A DNA stretch of 64,000 bases from Bacteriovoracia bacterium. Lineage in GTDB: Bacteria > Bdellovibrionota > UBA1018 > CAIPTA01. Made by a program: the position numbers and the translations under genes. This document shows positions 4,219-9,703 of this stretch, in pieces. How positions within the stretch are numbered: position 1 is the stretch's first letter; every line of letters begins with the position of its first letter. The notes beneath the pieces were generated by a model. The model saw only the letters and a program-made list of their open reading frames with translations, searched no databases and was not told where the DNA came from. The stretch covers positions 160,001-224,000 of the forward strand of contig JBFWVL010000001.1 of assembly GCA_050246755.1 (NCBI GenBank), given 5' to 3'.

Positions 4219-4785
4219 CTACCCCGAGGGCCAGCCGCGCTGGCGGTCATGCGCGCGGGCAATGATAAACCCGGCGTCGAAACGGCTATACCCAGCGCCC
4301 TCGAGCTTATTGATTTCGATATAGTCGGTGAGCCGCAGGTAACCGGACTTGCTGAGCACCAGGCGCGTGAAGGGGCGGTAGTCCCAAAATTTTTCCTTCA
4401 CCTTATTCCAGCGGCTCTTCCCCGCAACGGCCATCGCGATCGCGGCGGTAACAGCGCGGATAAATGGCTTATAGCCATGGAGCTTGGCTAGCTTTAGGTG
4501 AAAGTGCAGGTGATTGCCCACGTTCGCCAAGGAGATAATTTCCACACGGTACTTGGCCGCGAAACGCTTCACGATCGCTTGGATTTTTTGGGCATTGCGG
4601 GGCTGCTTGAAACTTAACGGGCCTTTGGCTCGGGAGGCCCGCAGCACCACATGCATGCTATTTCCGGTAGCGATCGGCCTAGGCCCTGCCCGCTCTACGC
4701 GTAGGCTGCGCAGCTGCCCTCCGTAGGCCAACGGGTTTCGCTTTTTATATAGCTGGCGGTTTTTTAGGGTGGTGGTGGCCGGCAA
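4219..4785 (-). mobile_element. Y1 HUH transposase (IS200/RAYT-like), stand-alone
   Basis: HVVLR, GNHLH (HUH), KFW..RPFTR and DYIEIN (catalytic Tyr). Start placed at TTG 4785 after an AAGGA RBS and a TTGCCT-N17-TATAAG promoter. Confidence 0.8.
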
Positions 4786-4984
4786 TGTTCTCGTCCTTTT
4801 TAACCTATACGGAAAACTCTTATACCTTCGGTCACAAAAATAGGCAAATAAACAAACAAAAATGAGCAAGCAAGCTCAACCCACGCACCCTAACCCCCCA
4901 CCGCCACGCACCAACCCCAATTGAGCTCGATAACCGCTGCGCTAACTGCTTCGGCTCCTAAGGCCGGCACCATAGGCCCGCATG

Positions 4985-6692: not shown

Positions 6693-6774
6693 CTCCAAGA
6701 GTTTAACTTGTCTCTTGCCGAAAGCCCCTCCTTACGCTATTTCTTAGCCGCCATTTTCAAACCTGGGGAATTCC

Positions 6775-7386
6775 ATGAAAAAATTCGCACTCGCCACTTC
6801 TTTGATCCTAGCCCTCACCGCGTGCGGCGGCAACGATAGCGGCACCGCTTCTTCCACCCTGGGCTCCGACGGCAGCCCCCAAGTAGCCATTCCCGCCGAT
6901 GCCACCACCCAGGATTATACCTGCCGGGTAACGCATGTTTTCAGTGATAACGGCGCCCCCGAAGAGACCTCCACCTTTGATTACTCCGGGGTAATTCACG
7001 ACTGGCAAGAAGGAGACCTCTTCGTTTCCTTCGATTGGGATTCCAGTGGCAACGAAGCCTACCTCACGAAGGTGCGTTCGGAGAAAATCACCGAGATCCA
7101 GAAACGATCCTTCATCCAGCAAACCCACTGGGAACGCGAAAACGGCGCGTGGATCCAGACCGTAAAAAATATTGAGAGAGTTTCGGAGCGCGAAAACGGC
7201 CAGTTCCGCGTGATCTCCAATAAGGTAAACGGCGTGGAAACGCCCTATGACTGGAACGCGGAATTCACTCCCGTGAACGATAACCAGTTCAAGGAAATCC
7301 GCCGTCACAAAGATCCCAGCTCGAGGAATAAAGATGGGATCCGCTACTCGAAAATCGAGGATGTCTGCAGCTATACCAACCGCTAG
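6775..7386 (+). CDS. lipoprotein of unknown function
   Basis: MKK..LTAC lipobox, RBS, downstream terminator. Confidence 0.8.
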   Translation: MKKFALATSLILALTACGGNDSGTASSTLGSDGSPQVAIPADATTQDYTCRVTHVFSDNGAPEETSTFDYSGVIHDWQEGDLFVSFDWDSSGNEAYLTKVRSEKITEIQKRSFIQQTHWERENGAWIQTVKNIERVSERENGQFRVISNKVNGVETPYDWNAEFTPVNDNQFKEIRRHKDPSSRNKDGIRYSKIEDVCSYTNR

Positions 7387-7401
7387 AAATCACCAATAAG
7401 C

Positions 7402-7434
7402 AAAAAGCTGGCGCCAATCGCGCCGGCTTTTTTT
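7402..7434 (+). terminator. Rho-independent terminator, possibly bidirectional
   Basis: aaaaagctggcgc-caatc-gcgccggcttttttt. Confidence 0.85.
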
Positions 7435-7441
7435 ATGCCTG

Positions 7442-7663
7442 AAAAAGGTGAAGCCCCACTCCCTGAGGAAGAGTGAGGCTTCGGTGTGGCCAGCTGGCTC
7501 ACACGATCGATGGATCGCGCCCGCTAGGTGGATGGAGACACCTAACGGAAAGTACTAATCTCTCGGATAACTGAGGGGGCCGAGAAACTAGGCGATTTGT
7601 CTGGGGGAAAAAATTCTAAAGAGCCGGGATCGTGGAGACTCTGGTTGTGAAGGAGCAGCGGGC
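7442..7663 (-). ncRNA. putative novel ~220-nt structured small RNA
   Basis: Own TTGTAT-N17-TATAAC promoter, several hairpins with G-U pairs favouring the minus strand, terminator plus U-tract, no ATG in the transcript. Confidence 0.72.
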
Positions 7664-7670
7664 GAGGAGA

Positions 7671-7699
7671 GTTATACGTCCGGAGCCGCTAAAATACAA
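7671..7699 (-). promoter_or_regulatory. sigma70 promoter of the putative sRNA
   Basis: TTGTAT (7699-7694), 17-nt spacer, TATAAC (7676-7671). Confidence 0.75.
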
Positions 7700-7738
7700 G
7701 TAAAATAGTCAGGAATTTACTGGTTTAAAATCAACAAC

Positions 7739-8203
7739 TTAGGGACTTGCCTGGAGCATCAGGCCCTCGATCGCGATCGCGCCCACGGCATTCTTCACTC
7801 CGTAGTAGCTCTGGAGAAGCACGGAGCCGTCCGGCTGGGGGTGGAGCTTGAGATTATAGGCGTAAGAAACACCGCCGCTCCGGGAAACGGTGATGAGGGT
7901 AGTGTCGGTGATAGTGCCCACCTGCTCTTCGTCTTCCCCCTCACCCTCGAATACTTTTCCGTCCCGGATCGTCTGCGCTACCGGCCCCCAATTGGAATCA
8001 TAGGTTCCGCAATTGGCGCGGTACTGCTTGGTGAGAAGGAGCCCCTCTTTTTGCTCGATCACGATTTCGATCTTCGAGCAATCACCCTTGATGCCCACGG
8101 TGCTATTGATCTTTCCGGTGGTGGTGAGCCAGTGGCCGGAGAAATTTCCCACGGCGAAGGCGGGGGTGGAAACTAGAGCGGCGAGTAAGAATAGAGTTTT
8201 CAT
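7739..8203 (-). CDS. secreted hypothetical protein
   Basis: Signal peptide MKTLFLLAALVSTPAFA; beta-rich mature part with 2 Cys. Confidence 0.75.
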   Translation of the reverse strand: MKTLFLLAALVSTPAFAVGNFSGHWLTTTGKINSTVGIKGDCSKIEIVIEQKEGLLLTKQYRANCGTYDSNWGPVAQTIRDGKVFEGEGEDEEQVGTITDTTLITVSRSGGVSYAYNLKLHPQPDGSVLLQSYYGVKNAVGAIAIEGLMLQASP

Positions 8204-8273
8204 AAGTAGACGCTACCGCAGCCCTGCGGAGAGAGCAAATGACGCGCATCTTAACCAAAGGTGCCTGACACCA

Positions 8274-8867
8274 TCAGCGGCGAAATACCAAATCCCAGCA
8301 GATTTCCCCGCGCGCCAAATATTTCTTCTCAAAATGCGTGCGCGGCTCGGCGTGAGCGGGAACGATACCTTCAGTTACAAGTTCGAGGCCCCACTCTCCC
8401 GTAATTTTCTCCTTCGCCCCCGCCCGATAAAAATCCATATTCGTAGCGAGAGTCAATAAACCACCCACCCGCATGGTCTCCACGATCACCGAGAAAAACG
8501 GCATCTCGTGGAAACGCAAATTCCGCTGGCTCTCTTTTGGATAGGGGTTGGGATACAGCAAAAAATATCGGTCCACCGAACCGGGCGAAACCCCGTGCGT
8601 GATCCAGGGAATCGCGTCGCCGTGAATCGCCCGCAAATTCGGCAAGGCCGGGTGGTGCGCCAGTCTTCCTTGAAACCGCGCGAATTTCTCCGCCGTGCGC
8701 TCGAAGGCCACTAATTGCCGCCCGGGATTCTCGCGGGCGTATTTCAAAGGATGAAATCCCACGCCGCAGCCTATTTCAATATCCAAAGGCATGCCCGTAC
8801 GCAAAGCCAAGGGAGAAAAATCCGGAGGCAGCGGAATTTTCTCCCGCGGAAAAACGCGCACGATCAA
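8274..8867 (-). CDS. trmB: TrmB-like tRNA (guanine-N7) methyltransferase
   Basis: DIEIGCGVG SAM motif, YPNPYPK, RTHFEKKY. Confidence 0.8.
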   Translation of the reverse strand: MIVRVFPREKIPLPPDFSPLALRTGMPLDIEIGCGVGFHPLKYARENPGRQLVAFERTAEKFARFQGRLAHHPALPNLRAIHGDAIPWITHGVSPGSVDRYFLLYPNPYPKESQRNLRFHEMPFFSVIVETMRVGGLLTLATNMDFYRAGAKEKITGEWGLELVTEGIVPAHAEPRTHFEKKYLARGEICWDLVFRR

Positions 8868-9703
8868 CCCATTTTCTTGGATTGGGGATCGAGGGCATCG
8901 CGGAGACCATCGCCCAAAAAGTTAAACGCCAGGATCGTGAGGAAGAGCGCGATGCCGGGGAAAAAAATCAAATAGGGATAGGTGCGGTAGGCGCGCCAGC
9001 CTTCGTTGGCGAGGGTGCCCCAGCTCGCGAAGGGCGGCTCGAGCCCGAGGCCCACGAAGCTCAGAAAACTTTCCGCCAAAATATTCTGGGGAATCCCGAA
9101 CGTGAGGCTCACGATCACCGGCCCGAGAATATTGGGCAGGATATGCTGGAACAAAATCCTCGTGCTGCGCATGCCAAGCGAGCGCGCCGCTTCCACGTAG
9201 AGCATTTCTTTGGCCTGCAGCACTTGCCCGCGCACAAGCCGCGCTTCCCCTACCCAGCCCACGATCCCGAGCGCCAGGAAAATCCCCAAAGGCCCCCGGC
9301 CCACCACGAGCATGAGCATCACCGTCACGAGCAGCGAGGGCAGCGCCAATAAAATATCCGCGGCCCGCATCATCACGGTATCGATCTTGCCGCCCGCATA
9401 GCCCGAGATGGCGCCATAGACGGTGCCGATGACCAGGGAAAAAATCGCGGTGAAAAATCCCACCGCCAGCGAAATGCGTGCGCCGTAGAGGATGCGGGAA
9501 AAAAGATCGCGGCCCAGGGAATCGGTGCCGAACCAGAAAGTGGAATTAGGAAACTGCAGGGCCTGATCAGCATCCTGGGCGAAATAGGAAAATTTCGTGA
9601 GCCAGGGCGCGAGGATCGCCACTAGCGAGAGCAGAAGCAGAAAGCCGAGGCTCACCATGGCTAGGCGATGACGCTTCAATCTTTTCCAGGCTTCGCCGTA
9701 CAT
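8864..9703 (-). CDS. oppC: oligopeptide ABC transporter permease (OppC)
   Basis: WFGTDSLGRD, EAA loop, HILPN, ESFLSFVGLG. Confidence 0.92.
   Translation of the reverse strand: MYGEAWKRLKRHRLAMVSLGFLLLLSLVAILAPWLTKFSYFAQDADQALQFPNSTFWFGTDSLGRDLFSRILYGARISLAVGFFTAIFSLVIGTVYGAISGYAGGKIDTVMMRAADILLALPSLLVTVMLMLVVGRGPLGIFLALGIVGWVGEARLVRGQVLQAKEMLYVEAARSLGMRSTRILFQHILPNILGPVIVSLTFGIPQNILAESFLSFVGLGLEPPFASWGTLANEGWRAYRTYPYLIFFPGIALFLTILAFNFLGDGLRDALDPQSKKMG

What the first reader, a model, noticed from the sequence alone, without database searches (positions are those of the whole stretch)
7442..7699. Unannotated ~220-nt sRNA with multiple anti-Shine-Dalgarno loops
Seen on the minus strand: a near-consensus promoter (TTGTAT-N17-TATAAC), no AUG, and a terminator ending in a U-tract at ~7442. 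Stems include CUAGUUUCUCGG/CCGAGAGAUUAG (loop CCCCCUCAGUUAU), CCGUUAGGUG/CACCUAGCGG (loop UCUCCAUC) and the terminator (loop CCUCA). The G-U pairs in these stems work only on this strand. Other C-rich words include CUCCUUC, GUCUCCAC and UUCCCCC. The 5' end GCCCGCUG can alternatively pair with UAGCGGGC, which is mutually exclusive with one hairpin. I do not recognise it as 6S, SRP, RNase P, tmRNA or a riboswitch. Inference: a multi-seed translational repressor like staphylococcal RNAIII, perhaps acting at a life-cycle switch.
Basis: partly seen in the sequence, partly recalled or inferred. Interest (0 to 1): 0.8.

Follow-up and report, generated by a model that had tools for sequence, protein, structure and literature searches.

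The report
Conserved clade-specific small RNA gene candidate
The gap between two genes of an uncultured bacterium holds what looks like a real gene for a tightly folded RNA of about 220 bases that does not code for protein; related strains have kept it almost unchanged, but its job is still a guess.

Summary
On the minus strand, 7664-7442 folds into five hairpins closed by an end-to-end helix (tool z -6.19, 0 of 200 shuffles as stable). In my own script the candidate scores z -9.6, and 0 of 110 random intergenic windows of this genome reach z -4. Nine of 63 pairs are G-U and fit only this strand. There is an intrinsic terminator and no ATG. No Rfam family matches. 6S, tmRNA, SRP RNA and RNase P RNA lie elsewhere.

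New evidence comes from a related strain in a wastewater metagenome. It differs at 3 of 229 bases here, against 30 of 292 in the adjacent gene, where 22 of 97 third codon positions differ. The unchanged block starts 1 base upstream of the -35 box. A second strain shows the same trend more weakly.

The RNA was not found in the other 126 genomes of its class, nor in 400 other genomes sampled from the phylum. No RNA-seq run was listed.

The promoter is modest (8 of 12), not near-consensus. A target scan gave the anti-Shine-Dalgarno idea no specific support. Nothing bears on the life-cycle idea.

Verdict: a probable new, narrow-range sRNA gene of a known general kind. This scan noted similar C-rich-loop sRNAs in other genomes, none on this DNA.

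The parts
7694..7699 (-). -35-like box TTGTAT
   Evidence: Read; 3 of 6 to TTGACA. Unchanged in strain X3, whose first upstream difference is at 7701.
7671..7676 (-). -10-like box TATAAC, 17 nt after the -35-like box
   Evidence: Read; 5 of 6 to TATAAT. Not called by the scan tool, which demands T at position 6. Unchanged in X3. The 6S gene of this genome has TTGTCA-N16-TATATT.
7442..7664 (-). Predicted transcript of about 223 nt (inferred start about 7664, end in the U-tract at 7442)
   Evidence: MFE -86.3 kcal/mol with 63 pairs, 9 of them G-U. Tool z -6.19 for 7670-7435. No ATG. The wider stretch 7442-7670 (229 nt) shows 3 substitutions and one 1-nt deletion in X3, all four inside this transcript.
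7489..7663 (-). Closing helix P1: 7663-7661 and 7659-7653 paired with 7500-7489
   Evidence: MFE and centroid; pair probability 0.998 for 7659-7493. The X3 change at 7657 turns one U-A pair into C-A.
7620..7642 (-). Hairpin Ha, 6 bp, 11-nt loop UCCACGAUCCC
   Evidence: loop unpaired probability about 0.9.
7555..7591 (-). Hairpin H1, 12 bp, 13-nt loop CCCCCUCAGUUAU
   Evidence: I5. The X3 change at 7567 is the last loop base.
7521..7548 (-). Hairpin H2, 10 bp, 8-nt loop UCUCCAUC
   Evidence: I7. No X3 difference shown.
7501..7520 (-). Hairpin H3, 8 bp, loop CAUC, abutting H2 and P1 with no linker
7442..7482 (-). Intrinsic terminator T1: 14-bp stem, loop CCUCA, then ACC and UUUUU
   Evidence: Three G-U pairs fit the minus strand only.
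7404..7437 (.). Second, two-way terminator T2. It fits the plus-strand 203-aa gene better, because it has a C-A mismatch on the minus strand
   Evidence: I3. Homology with X3 ends at 7416 and with X5 at 7402.
7701..7738 (-). Fast-changing spacer between the stop codon of the 154-aa gene and the -35-like box; it holds no terminator
   Evidence: 7 X3 substitutions in 38 nt. No terminator-like site there.
7739..8203 (-). Upstream gene for a 154-aa secreted protein, linked to the RNA in G000, X3 and X5
   Evidence: Signal peptide read. 22 of 30 X3 substitutions fall at third codon positions. No Pfam family. Lipocalin-like leads only.

Best explanation
This is a real non-coding RNA gene on the minus strand, kept by selection. 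A sigma-70-type promoter (TTGTAT-N17-TATAAC, 7699-7671) would start a transcript near 7664. The terminator at 7482-7442 would end it, giving about 223 nt.

The RNA folds into hairpins Ha, H1, H2 and H3 inside a closing helix, followed by the terminator hairpin. Because no terminator separates it from the 154-aa gene upstream, the same terminator probably also ends that mRNA. This is the layout of a 3'-UTR sRNA with its own promoter.

Most likely it acts in trans by base pairing, without Hfq. It would use its exposed C/U-rich loops and linker (UCUCC twice, CCUCAG twice, UUCCCCC) against G-rich ribosome-binding regions.

Shown: structure, strand, terminator, conservation.
Inferred: promoter use, the 5' end, any pairing with mRNAs.

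My odds: a functional minus-strand RNA element 0.75; own promoter 0.6; anti-Shine-Dalgarno pairing as the mode of action 0.3.
For: Structure
- Tool z -6.19, with 0 of 200 shuffles as stable.
- In my script the candidate scores z -9.6, while 0 of 110 intergenic windows of the genome reach z -4.

Strand
- 9 of 63 pairs are G-U.
- The plus strand scores only z -3.40.
- The U-tract follows the hairpin only on the minus strand.

Conservation
- In X3 there are 3 substitutions in 229 nt, against 30 in 292 nt of the adjacent coding sequence (Fisher p 1.4e-5).
- The spacer has 7 in 68 nt (p 0.0017), and 22 of 97 third codon positions differ.
- 7658-7700, which holds both promoter boxes, is unchanged; the first difference upstream is at 7701.
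- In X5, one piece has 5 of 188 differences, against 98 of 1247 in five coding pieces (p 0.009).

Not a leader
- The downstream gene lies on the other strand. It is a real lipoprotein gene (GC3 0.68), while the minus-strand ORF over it is a shadow.

Not coding: no ATG.

Not a known RNA.

Pairing idea
- The 16S tail is CACCUCCUUUC.
- AGGAG and GGAGA are the commonest 5-mers at -22 to -3.
- No Hfq gene was found. The C-rich sRNAs of Staphylococcus are likewise Hfq-independent (PMC2790875, passages).
Against: - No expression data. No RNA run was listed, so neither the transcript nor its ends are shown.
- No covariation. The only variants are 3 substitutions and 1 deletion, and one of them (7657) breaks a pair of the closing helix.
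- The promoter is 8 of 12 with C at the last -10 position, and the scan tool did not call it.
- The terminator has a 3-nt spacer before a run of only five U.
- The difference tables are cut: 141 rows of substitutions and 6 of indels are not shown. The X3 count therefore assumes that the rows come in order of place. The even density beyond them supports this: about 90 in 830 nt after 8030, against 37 in 330 nt before it.
- Low divergence could also come from a recombination tract.
- Target scan: translation start regions pair no better than windows inside genes. Means agree within 0.7 kcal/mol, and counts in the best 2% for the two main loops are 79 against 70 and 84 against 72.
- C-rich words are not enriched beyond the base composition (p 0.17).
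- My gene starts were chosen with a Shine-Dalgarno filter, which biases towards the pairing idea.
Confidence: 0.5

Rival explanations
1. It is only the structured 3' untranslated region of the mRNA for the 154-aa secreted protein. It would have no promoter of its own. It would protect that mRNA from 3' exonucleases, tune it in cis, or be cut out as a processed sRNA.
For: - It lies 75 nt downstream of the stop codon on the same strand, with no terminator between.
- The RNA stays linked to this gene in G000, X3 and X5, while the other flank differs from 7416 or 7402 onward.
- The promoter is weak (8 of 12; one search finds none).
Against: - The first 38 nt after the stop codon change at a near-neutral rate (7 of 38).
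- The next 43 nt (7700-7658) are predicted to be only weakly structured and hold the two boxes at the right spacing. They are unchanged in X3. A pure 3'-UTR fold would not need that stretch.
Confidence: 0.2
2. It is a structured RNA whose function lies in its fold, not in pairing by its loops. It would bind or titrate a protein or a small molecule.
For: - The architecture is closed and multi-branched. H2, H3 and the closing helix abut with no linker, which is unlike the open hairpin strings of most pairing sRNAs.
- The structure is very stable and near-invariant across its whole length, not only in the loops.
- The target scan gave no signal.
- Loop words recur in pairs: GUCUCCA in Ha and H2, CCUCAG in H1 and T1.
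Against: - No known partner. There is no linked RNA-binding protein gene; the neighbours are a secreted protein and a lipoprotein.
- No Rfam family of this type matches.
- A repeated 7-mer in 223 nt is expected by chance. My estimate is about 1.4 such pairs, an inference not made by a tool.
- The range is very narrow.
Confidence: 0.15
3. It is not a functional RNA. The low divergence would be a recent recombination tract or a DNA-level site next to a rearrangement break, and the hairpins would be incidental palindromes plus terminators between convergent genes.
For: - Synteny with X3 and X5 breaks right beside it, at 7416 and 7402.
- It is found in no other genome.
- There is no expression evidence.
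Against: - Two separate strains both show the dip, and with different numbers of changes.
- All 9 wobble positions fit one strand, which DNA palindromes would not do.
- The structure is far outside the genome's intergenic background.
- Two terminators need about 80 nt, not 285.
Confidence: 0.08
4. The gene is on the plus strand and is a CsrA-titrating RNA. On that strand the loops read GGA-containing words such as AUGGAGA and GAGGAA.
For: A CsrA gene is present (90.9 bits). The plus strand also folds better than shuffles (z -3.40).
Against: - Nine pairs become C-A mismatches on the plus strand.
- No plus-strand terminator-like site was found in 7000-8300.
- The plus-strand z is much weaker, and 2 of 200 shuffles match it.
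Confidence: 0.02

Closest known systems
Staphylococcus aureus RNAIII and the Rsa class of C-rich-motif sRNAs (RsaE/RoxS). PMC2790875, passages read
   Same: A stable RNA with several hairpins and a terminator. Unpaired C-rich words sit in loops: UCCC in the Ha loop and the linker, CCCCC in H1. No Hfq is at hand. The proposed action is on Shine-Dalgarno regions.
   Different: - No sequence or structure match to any Rfam family at E up to 10.
- Another phylum.
- About 223 nt, not 514 (the 514 figure for RNAIII is recalled, not from a call).
- No encoded peptide, since there is no ATG.
- A closed multi-branch fold.
- No demonstrated target.
- The loops differ from each other.
Cuckoo RNAs of Alphaproteobacteria (RSs0680/CcsR, SmelC397). 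PMC4615179, passages read
   Same: Several adjacent hairpins show anti-Shine-Dalgarno-like loop words. Some are transcribed together with an upstream small hypothetical gene and end in a terminator-like hairpin.
   Different: The defining loop motif CCUCCUCCC is absent from the sequence. Cuckoo RNAs form no multiloop, whereas this fold is closed by a terminal helix.
3'-UTR sRNAs with their own promoter that share the terminator of the upstream mRNA (the 'type I' layout, for example DapZ and MicL of enterobacteria; recalled, no paper read here)
   Same: Position right after a coding sequence on the same strand. No terminator lies between them. A promoter-like site precedes the RNA. The terminator is shared.
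   Different: Those examples depend on Hfq and their promoters lie inside the coding sequence. Here the boxes lie after the stop codon, and no Hfq gene was found.
Attack-phase intergenic sRNAs of Bdellovibrio bacteriovorus HD100 (8 listed, 98-655 nt, including merRNA). PMC3627812, passages read
   Same: Intergenic sRNAs of unknown function in the same phylum, with conservation limited to the lineage. The phylum label comes from earlier notes of this scan and I did not check it.
   Different: - No c-di-GMP riboswitch or other Rfam hit here.
- I saw no sigma-28-type box by eye (consensus recalled).
- Sequences could not be compared, because that paper's sRNA sequences were not at hand.

Membership tests
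RNAIII (Rfam) and other catalogued C-rich sRNAs (RsaE, 6C, the alphaproteobacterial families) | Match to the family's covariance model | tested here: not met
   There are no matches at gathering score other than two tRNAs elsewhere. At E up to 10, 18 weak matches appear. All lie below their cut-offs, and nearly all sit on the terminators at 7349-7492.
Rsa/RNAIII-type C-rich-motif class (a functional class, not a homology family) | Unpaired UCCC or C-rich words in loops or linkers | tested here: met
   AUCCC in the Ha loop, UUCCCCC in the linker and CCCCC in the H1 loop all have unpaired probability about 0.9. The class definition comes from PMC2790875.
Rsa/RNAIII-type C-rich-motif class | Pairing with Shine-Dalgarno regions that blocks the initiation complex | tested here: inconclusive
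   Complementary words exist. The duplex scan shows no outlier and no enrichment for the two main loops.
Cuckoo RNA family | CCUCCUCCC in every hairpin loop; 2-4 adjacent hairpins without a multiloop | tested here: not met
   The motif is absent from the printed sequence. The MFE fold has a multiloop closed by P1. The definition comes from PMC4615179.
Independent sRNA gene (promoter plus intrinsic terminator, non-coding, conserved) | Intrinsic terminator on the same strand | tested here: met
   14-bp stem at 7482-7450 followed by a U-tract.
Independent sRNA gene | Own promoter and a primary 5' end | tested here: inconclusive
   The boxes match 8 of 12 and the scan did not call them. However, 7658-7700 is unchanged in X3 while 7701-7738 has 7 changes. 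No TSS data exist.
Independent sRNA gene | Conservation above the neutral rate | tested here: met
   3 of 229 against 22 of 97 third codon positions in X3. 5 of 188 against 98 of 1247 in X5. Caveat: the tables are cut.
Independent sRNA gene | Compensatory base changes that support the fold | not testable with these tools
   Only two near-identical relatives are known, and their sequences could not be fetched. There are no homologs in the other 126 genomes of the class or in 400 other genomes of the phylum.
Independent sRNA gene | A detectable transcript | not testable with these tools
   The 5 runs listed are all DNA contigs.
Housekeeping RNAs (6S, tmRNA, SRP RNA, RNase P RNA) | Being the genome's copy of that RNA | tested here: not met
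   6S is at C3:142935-143113 (82.7 bits). tmRNA is at C7:96352-96704. SRP RNA is at C1:1501249. RNase P RNA is at C1:1178213.
5' leader or riboswitch | A gene downstream on the same strand | tested here: not met
   The next gene, 6775-7386, is on the plus strand and looks real (lipobox, GC3 0.68). The minus-strand ORF 7308-6808 has shadow-frame composition, with GC1 0.70 and GC3 0.54.
CsrB/RsmZ-type CsrA sponge (plus strand) | Transcription of the strand that shows GGA loops | tested here: not met
   The G-U pairs, the terminator and the z-score all favour the minus strand.

The most novel reading that the evidence does not exclude
This is a new class of compact, five-helix structured RNA confined to a small uncultured clade. 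Earlier notes of this scan place the clade in Bdellovibrionota. On this reading the whole fold is the functional unit, for example a binder of a protein or a small molecule. The fold would then explain why the RNA is nearly invariant along its entire length, while synonymous sites beside it have diverged by about 23%.
Probability: 0.15. Interest if true: 0.55.

Novelty: new member of a known kind. Interest (0 to 1): 0.35.

Why it matters
If real, it adds a regulatory RNA to a lineage in which almost nothing is known about RNA regulation and in which I found no Hfq gene. It would also be a clean case of a non-coding gene conserved far better than its protein-coding neighbour. Its reach is small. 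It occurs in one species-level clade, has no known target, and belongs to a well-known general kind (promoter-to-terminator sRNA with C-rich loops). It would not surprise a specialist.

Tried and rejected
- RNA evidence: no RNA holder listed. The 5 runs found are all DNA contigs.
- Homolog searches that found nothing beyond the window itself:
  - BLAST in 41 relatives.
  - BLAST in 401 genomes of the phylum. Five other genomes gave only 21-29-nt matches at E 5e-4 to 8e-3, which I take as chance.
  - A covariance model built from two identical copies, in 61 relatives and all 127 genomes of the class.
  - A 22-base pattern from hairpin 2 in metagenome, genome and viral contigs.
  - The 154-aa protein as a handle in metagenome and genome contigs.
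  - blastn against phages and plasmids.
- Synteny: the flanking genes are orphans, found in 2 of 41 and 1 of 41 genomes. In three same-genus genomes TrmB is followed directly by an unrelated convergent gene.
- Own genome: no second copy.
- Target prediction: no convincing target. The convergent lipoprotein's start region pairs with the linker at -19.5 kcal/mol. That is inside the bulk of the distribution, whose 10th best value is -25.0.
- Housekeeping RNA, leader, small protein and plus-strand CsrA sponge were all considered and rejected (see the membership tests).
One search failed on wrong coordinates and was resent without that item.
- The sequences of the X3 and X5 contigs could not be fetched, so I made no alignment or covariation test.
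- Literature searches turned up nothing on this RNA. They cannot find a sequence, so this is no claim that it is unpublished. Supplements were not opened.

Full report
WHAT IS THERE

The finding lies in a 352-nt gap (7387-7738) between two convergent genes.
- Upstream, on the minus strand, is a 154-aa gene (8203-7739). Its product starts with a signal peptide. It has no Pfam family and only lipocalin-like leads below the 0.9 bar.
- Downstream, on the plus strand, is a 203-aa gene (6775-7386). It has a lipoprotein signal and a GC3 of 0.68.
- The minus-strand ORF that overlaps the 203-aa gene has shadow-frame composition (GC1 0.70, GC3 0.54). Nothing therefore follows the element on its own strand, and it is not a leader.

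The minus strand 7670-7435 folds at -87.2 kcal/mol, with z -6.19 and none of 200 dinucleotide shuffles as stable. The plus strand scores z -3.40, with 2 of 200 as stable.

The fold has these parts:
- a closing helix P1 (7663-7653 with 7500-7489);
- hairpin Ha (loop UCCACGAUCCC);
- hairpin H1 (12 bp, loop CCCCCUCAGUUAU);
- hairpin H2 (10 bp, loop UCUCCAUC);
- hairpin H3 (8 bp, loop CAUC), abutting H2 and P1 with no linker;
- a 14-bp terminator hairpin at 7482-7450, followed by ACC-UUUUU.

Nine of the 63 pairs are G-U and would be C-A on the other strand. This is also why the DNA-level inverted repeats are only 83-92% complementary.

As a background control I scored 110 random 223-nt windows from the intergenic gaps of this genome with my own shuffle script. 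None reached z -4, the lowest was -3.62, and the candidate scored -9.6 in the same script. The tool's figure of -6.19 is the more reliable absolute value.

There is no ATG in 7664-7442.

The alternative pairing of the 5' end with 7526-7519 is real (8 nt, 100%). The best fold that contains it is 7.3 kcal/mol worse (-79.0 against -86.3). It is the MFE only for the 160-nt nascent chain.

Three points were overstated.
- The promoter TTGTAT-N17-TATAAC matches the consensus at 8 of 12 positions and ends in C. The scan tool found 0 promoter-like sites. For comparison, the 6S gene of this genome has TTGTCA-N16-TATATT.
- The word UCUCCUC lies between the -10 box and the probable start, so it is likely not in the RNA.
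- The 8 CUCC/CCUC words in 229 nt are in the top 1.3% of genome windows. They are not unusual for a stretch with 35% C (shuffle p 0.17).

IT IS NOT A KNOWN RNA

At Rfam gathering scores the window holds only two tRNAs, both elsewhere. At E up to 10 there are 18 weak matches. All lie below their cut-offs, and nearly all sit on the two terminators.

The genome's housekeeping RNAs are elsewhere:
- 6S RNA at C3 (82.7 bits);
- tmRNA at C7;
- SRP RNA at C1:1501249;
- RNase P RNA at C1:1178213.

THE NEW EVIDENCE: CONSERVATION

No RNA run was listed. The DNA is held by landfill and wastewater metagenome runs, and I laid four of them on 6700-8900.

Run X3 (a 16.3-kb contig) covers 7416-8860, with 131 other letters and 17 gap letters.
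- In the rows shown, 7442-7670 has 3 substitutions (7554, 7567, 7657) and one 1-nt deletion (7608).
- The spacer 7671-7738 has 7 substitutions, all at 7701 or beyond.
- The 154-aa gene has 30 in its first 292 nt.
- Of those 30, 22 fall on third codon positions. The gene is therefore real and under purifying selection, and near-neutral divergence is about 23% (22 of 97).
- The RNA is thus about 17 times less diverged than third positions. Fisher p is 1.4e-5 against the coding sequence and 0.0017 against the spacer.
- The unchanged block begins at 7700, one base upstream of the -35 box (7699-7694). The first difference is at 7701. The 43 nt from 7700 to 7658, predicted to be only weakly structured, hold both boxes.

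Run X5 gives complete per-piece counts.
- 5 of 188 differ over 7402-7589.
- 5 differ, plus 6 gap letters, in 159 over 7561-7719.
- Five coding pieces together have 98 of 1247 (p 0.009 for the first piece).

Three of the four X3 changes lie in unpaired positions. The fourth turns a U-A pair of P1 into C-A. The variant keeps all hairpins (-83.5 against -86.3).

Caveats:
- The tables are cut (141 substitution rows and 6 indel rows are not shown). My X3 count assumes that the rows are listed by place. The even density supports this: about 90 in the 830 nt after 8030, against 37 in the 330 nt before it.
- Two strains cannot show covariation.
- A recombination tract is not excluded, though two strains with different numbers of changes argue against it.

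RANGE

The RNA has one copy in its genome. It was found in none of the other genomes searched:
- 40 relatives by BLAST;
- 400 other genomes of the phylum by BLAST, where 5 gave only 21-29-nt chance-level matches;
- 60 relatives and then all 126 other genomes of the class with a covariance model.

Pattern and protein-handle scans of metagenome, genome and viral contigs found nothing. blastn against phages and plasmids also found nothing.

Both flanking genes are orphans. In three same-genus genomes TrmB is followed directly by an unrelated convergent gene. In X3 and X5 the block TrmB, 154-aa gene and RNA is kept, while the sequence beyond 7416 or 7402 is different.

Earlier notes of this scan call the genome Bdellovibrionota. 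I did not check that.

HOW IT MOST LIKELY WORKS

I read it as an RNA gene with its own sigma-70-type promoter that shares its terminator with the upstream mRNA. No terminator lies between the stop codon and the RNA.

For the mode of action the data are thin.

In favour of pairing with ribosome-binding sites:
- The 16S tail is the usual CACCUCCUUUC.
- AGGAG and GGAGA are the commonest 5-mers upstream of starts (biased by my choice of starts).
- The loops offer UCUCC twice, CCUCAG twice and UUCCCCC.
- No Hfq gene was found in a genome that is 95.7% complete. This matches the Hfq-independent C-rich sRNAs of Staphylococcus (PMC2790875, passages).

Against:
- I ran a duplex scan of six unpaired segments against 3632 rough start regions and the same number of windows inside genes. 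It gave equal means (within 0.7 kcal/mol) and no outlier.
- Counts in the best 2%, start regions against internal windows: S1 (5' linker after P1) 106/51; S2 (Ha loop) 83/77; S3 (linker) 91/56; S4 (H1 loop) 79/70; S5 (H2 loop) 84/72; S7 (T1 loop) 92/60.
- The two main loops therefore show nothing specific.
- The neighbours are not notable targets.

The closed, linker-free junction of H2, H3 and P1, and the conservation along the whole length, fit a fold-based function about as well.

I put the odds at:
- 0.75 for a functional minus-strand RNA element;
- 0.6 for its own promoter;
- 0.3 for anti-Shine-Dalgarno pairing;
- 0.15 for a fold-based binder;
- 0.2 for a 3'-UTR element without a promoter.

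Nothing bears on a life-cycle switch.

COMPARISON WITH WHAT IS KNOWN

It works, if at all, like the C-rich-loop sRNAs. RNAIII carries UCCC in three loops, and the Rsa RNAs carry the same motif (PMC2790875). It is not a member of any such family, because no model matches.

It is not a cuckoo RNA. The defining CCUCCUCCC loop motif is absent, and cuckoo RNAs have no multiloop (PMC4615179).

In layout it resembles 3'-UTR sRNAs with their own promoter (recalled, no paper read).

In its phylum, eight intergenic attack-phase sRNAs of unknown function are on record for B. bacteriovorus (PMC3627812). Their sequences were not at hand for comparison.

This scan has noted similar C-rich-loop sRNA candidates in other genomes, but none on this DNA.

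VERDICT

The sRNA-gene reading is supported by strong comparative evidence. The RNAIII-like mechanism is unproven. It is a new member of a known kind, of narrow range and modest interest.

Noticed in passing
window 7404-7437: The second terminator is two-way but asymmetric. It has a U-G wobble on the plus strand and a C-A mismatch on the minus strand, so it suits the 203-aa gene. The loose end of the X3 contig shows a left arm that would pair perfectly, although the DNA beyond it is unrelated.
   Followed up: partly
window 7739-8203 (minus) and G000 C1:607964-608320: The 154-aa secreted protein has no Pfam family and only lipocalin- or avidin-like leads. It has a 25%-identical paralog elsewhere in the genome and a weak relative in one genome of the same order.
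   Followed up: partly
window 6775-7386 (plus): An orphan 203-aa lipoprotein (lipobox LTAC). It has no relative in 40 related genomes and is absent from the X3 and X5 contexts.
   Followed up: no
whole genome G000: No Hfq domain was found, although the genome is 95.7% complete. A CsrA gene is present at C1:1612944-1613099.
   Followed up: no
window 4219-4869 (minus): A 216-aa ORF with a weak IS200-like Y1 transposase match below Pfam's cut-off (E 3e-4, 21.3 bits against 23). It lies 2.5 kb from the RNA.
   Followed up: no
window 7438-7486: A 252-nt contig of landfill run X4 matches only the terminator hairpin (49 nt, 5 differences), and the rest of the contig is unlike. It may be a more distant relative or a chance look-alike.
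   Followed up: no
whole genome G000: The palindrome GCGATCGC occurs 349 times in 3.55 Mb. By my own estimate from base composition, that is several times more than expected.
   Followed up: no
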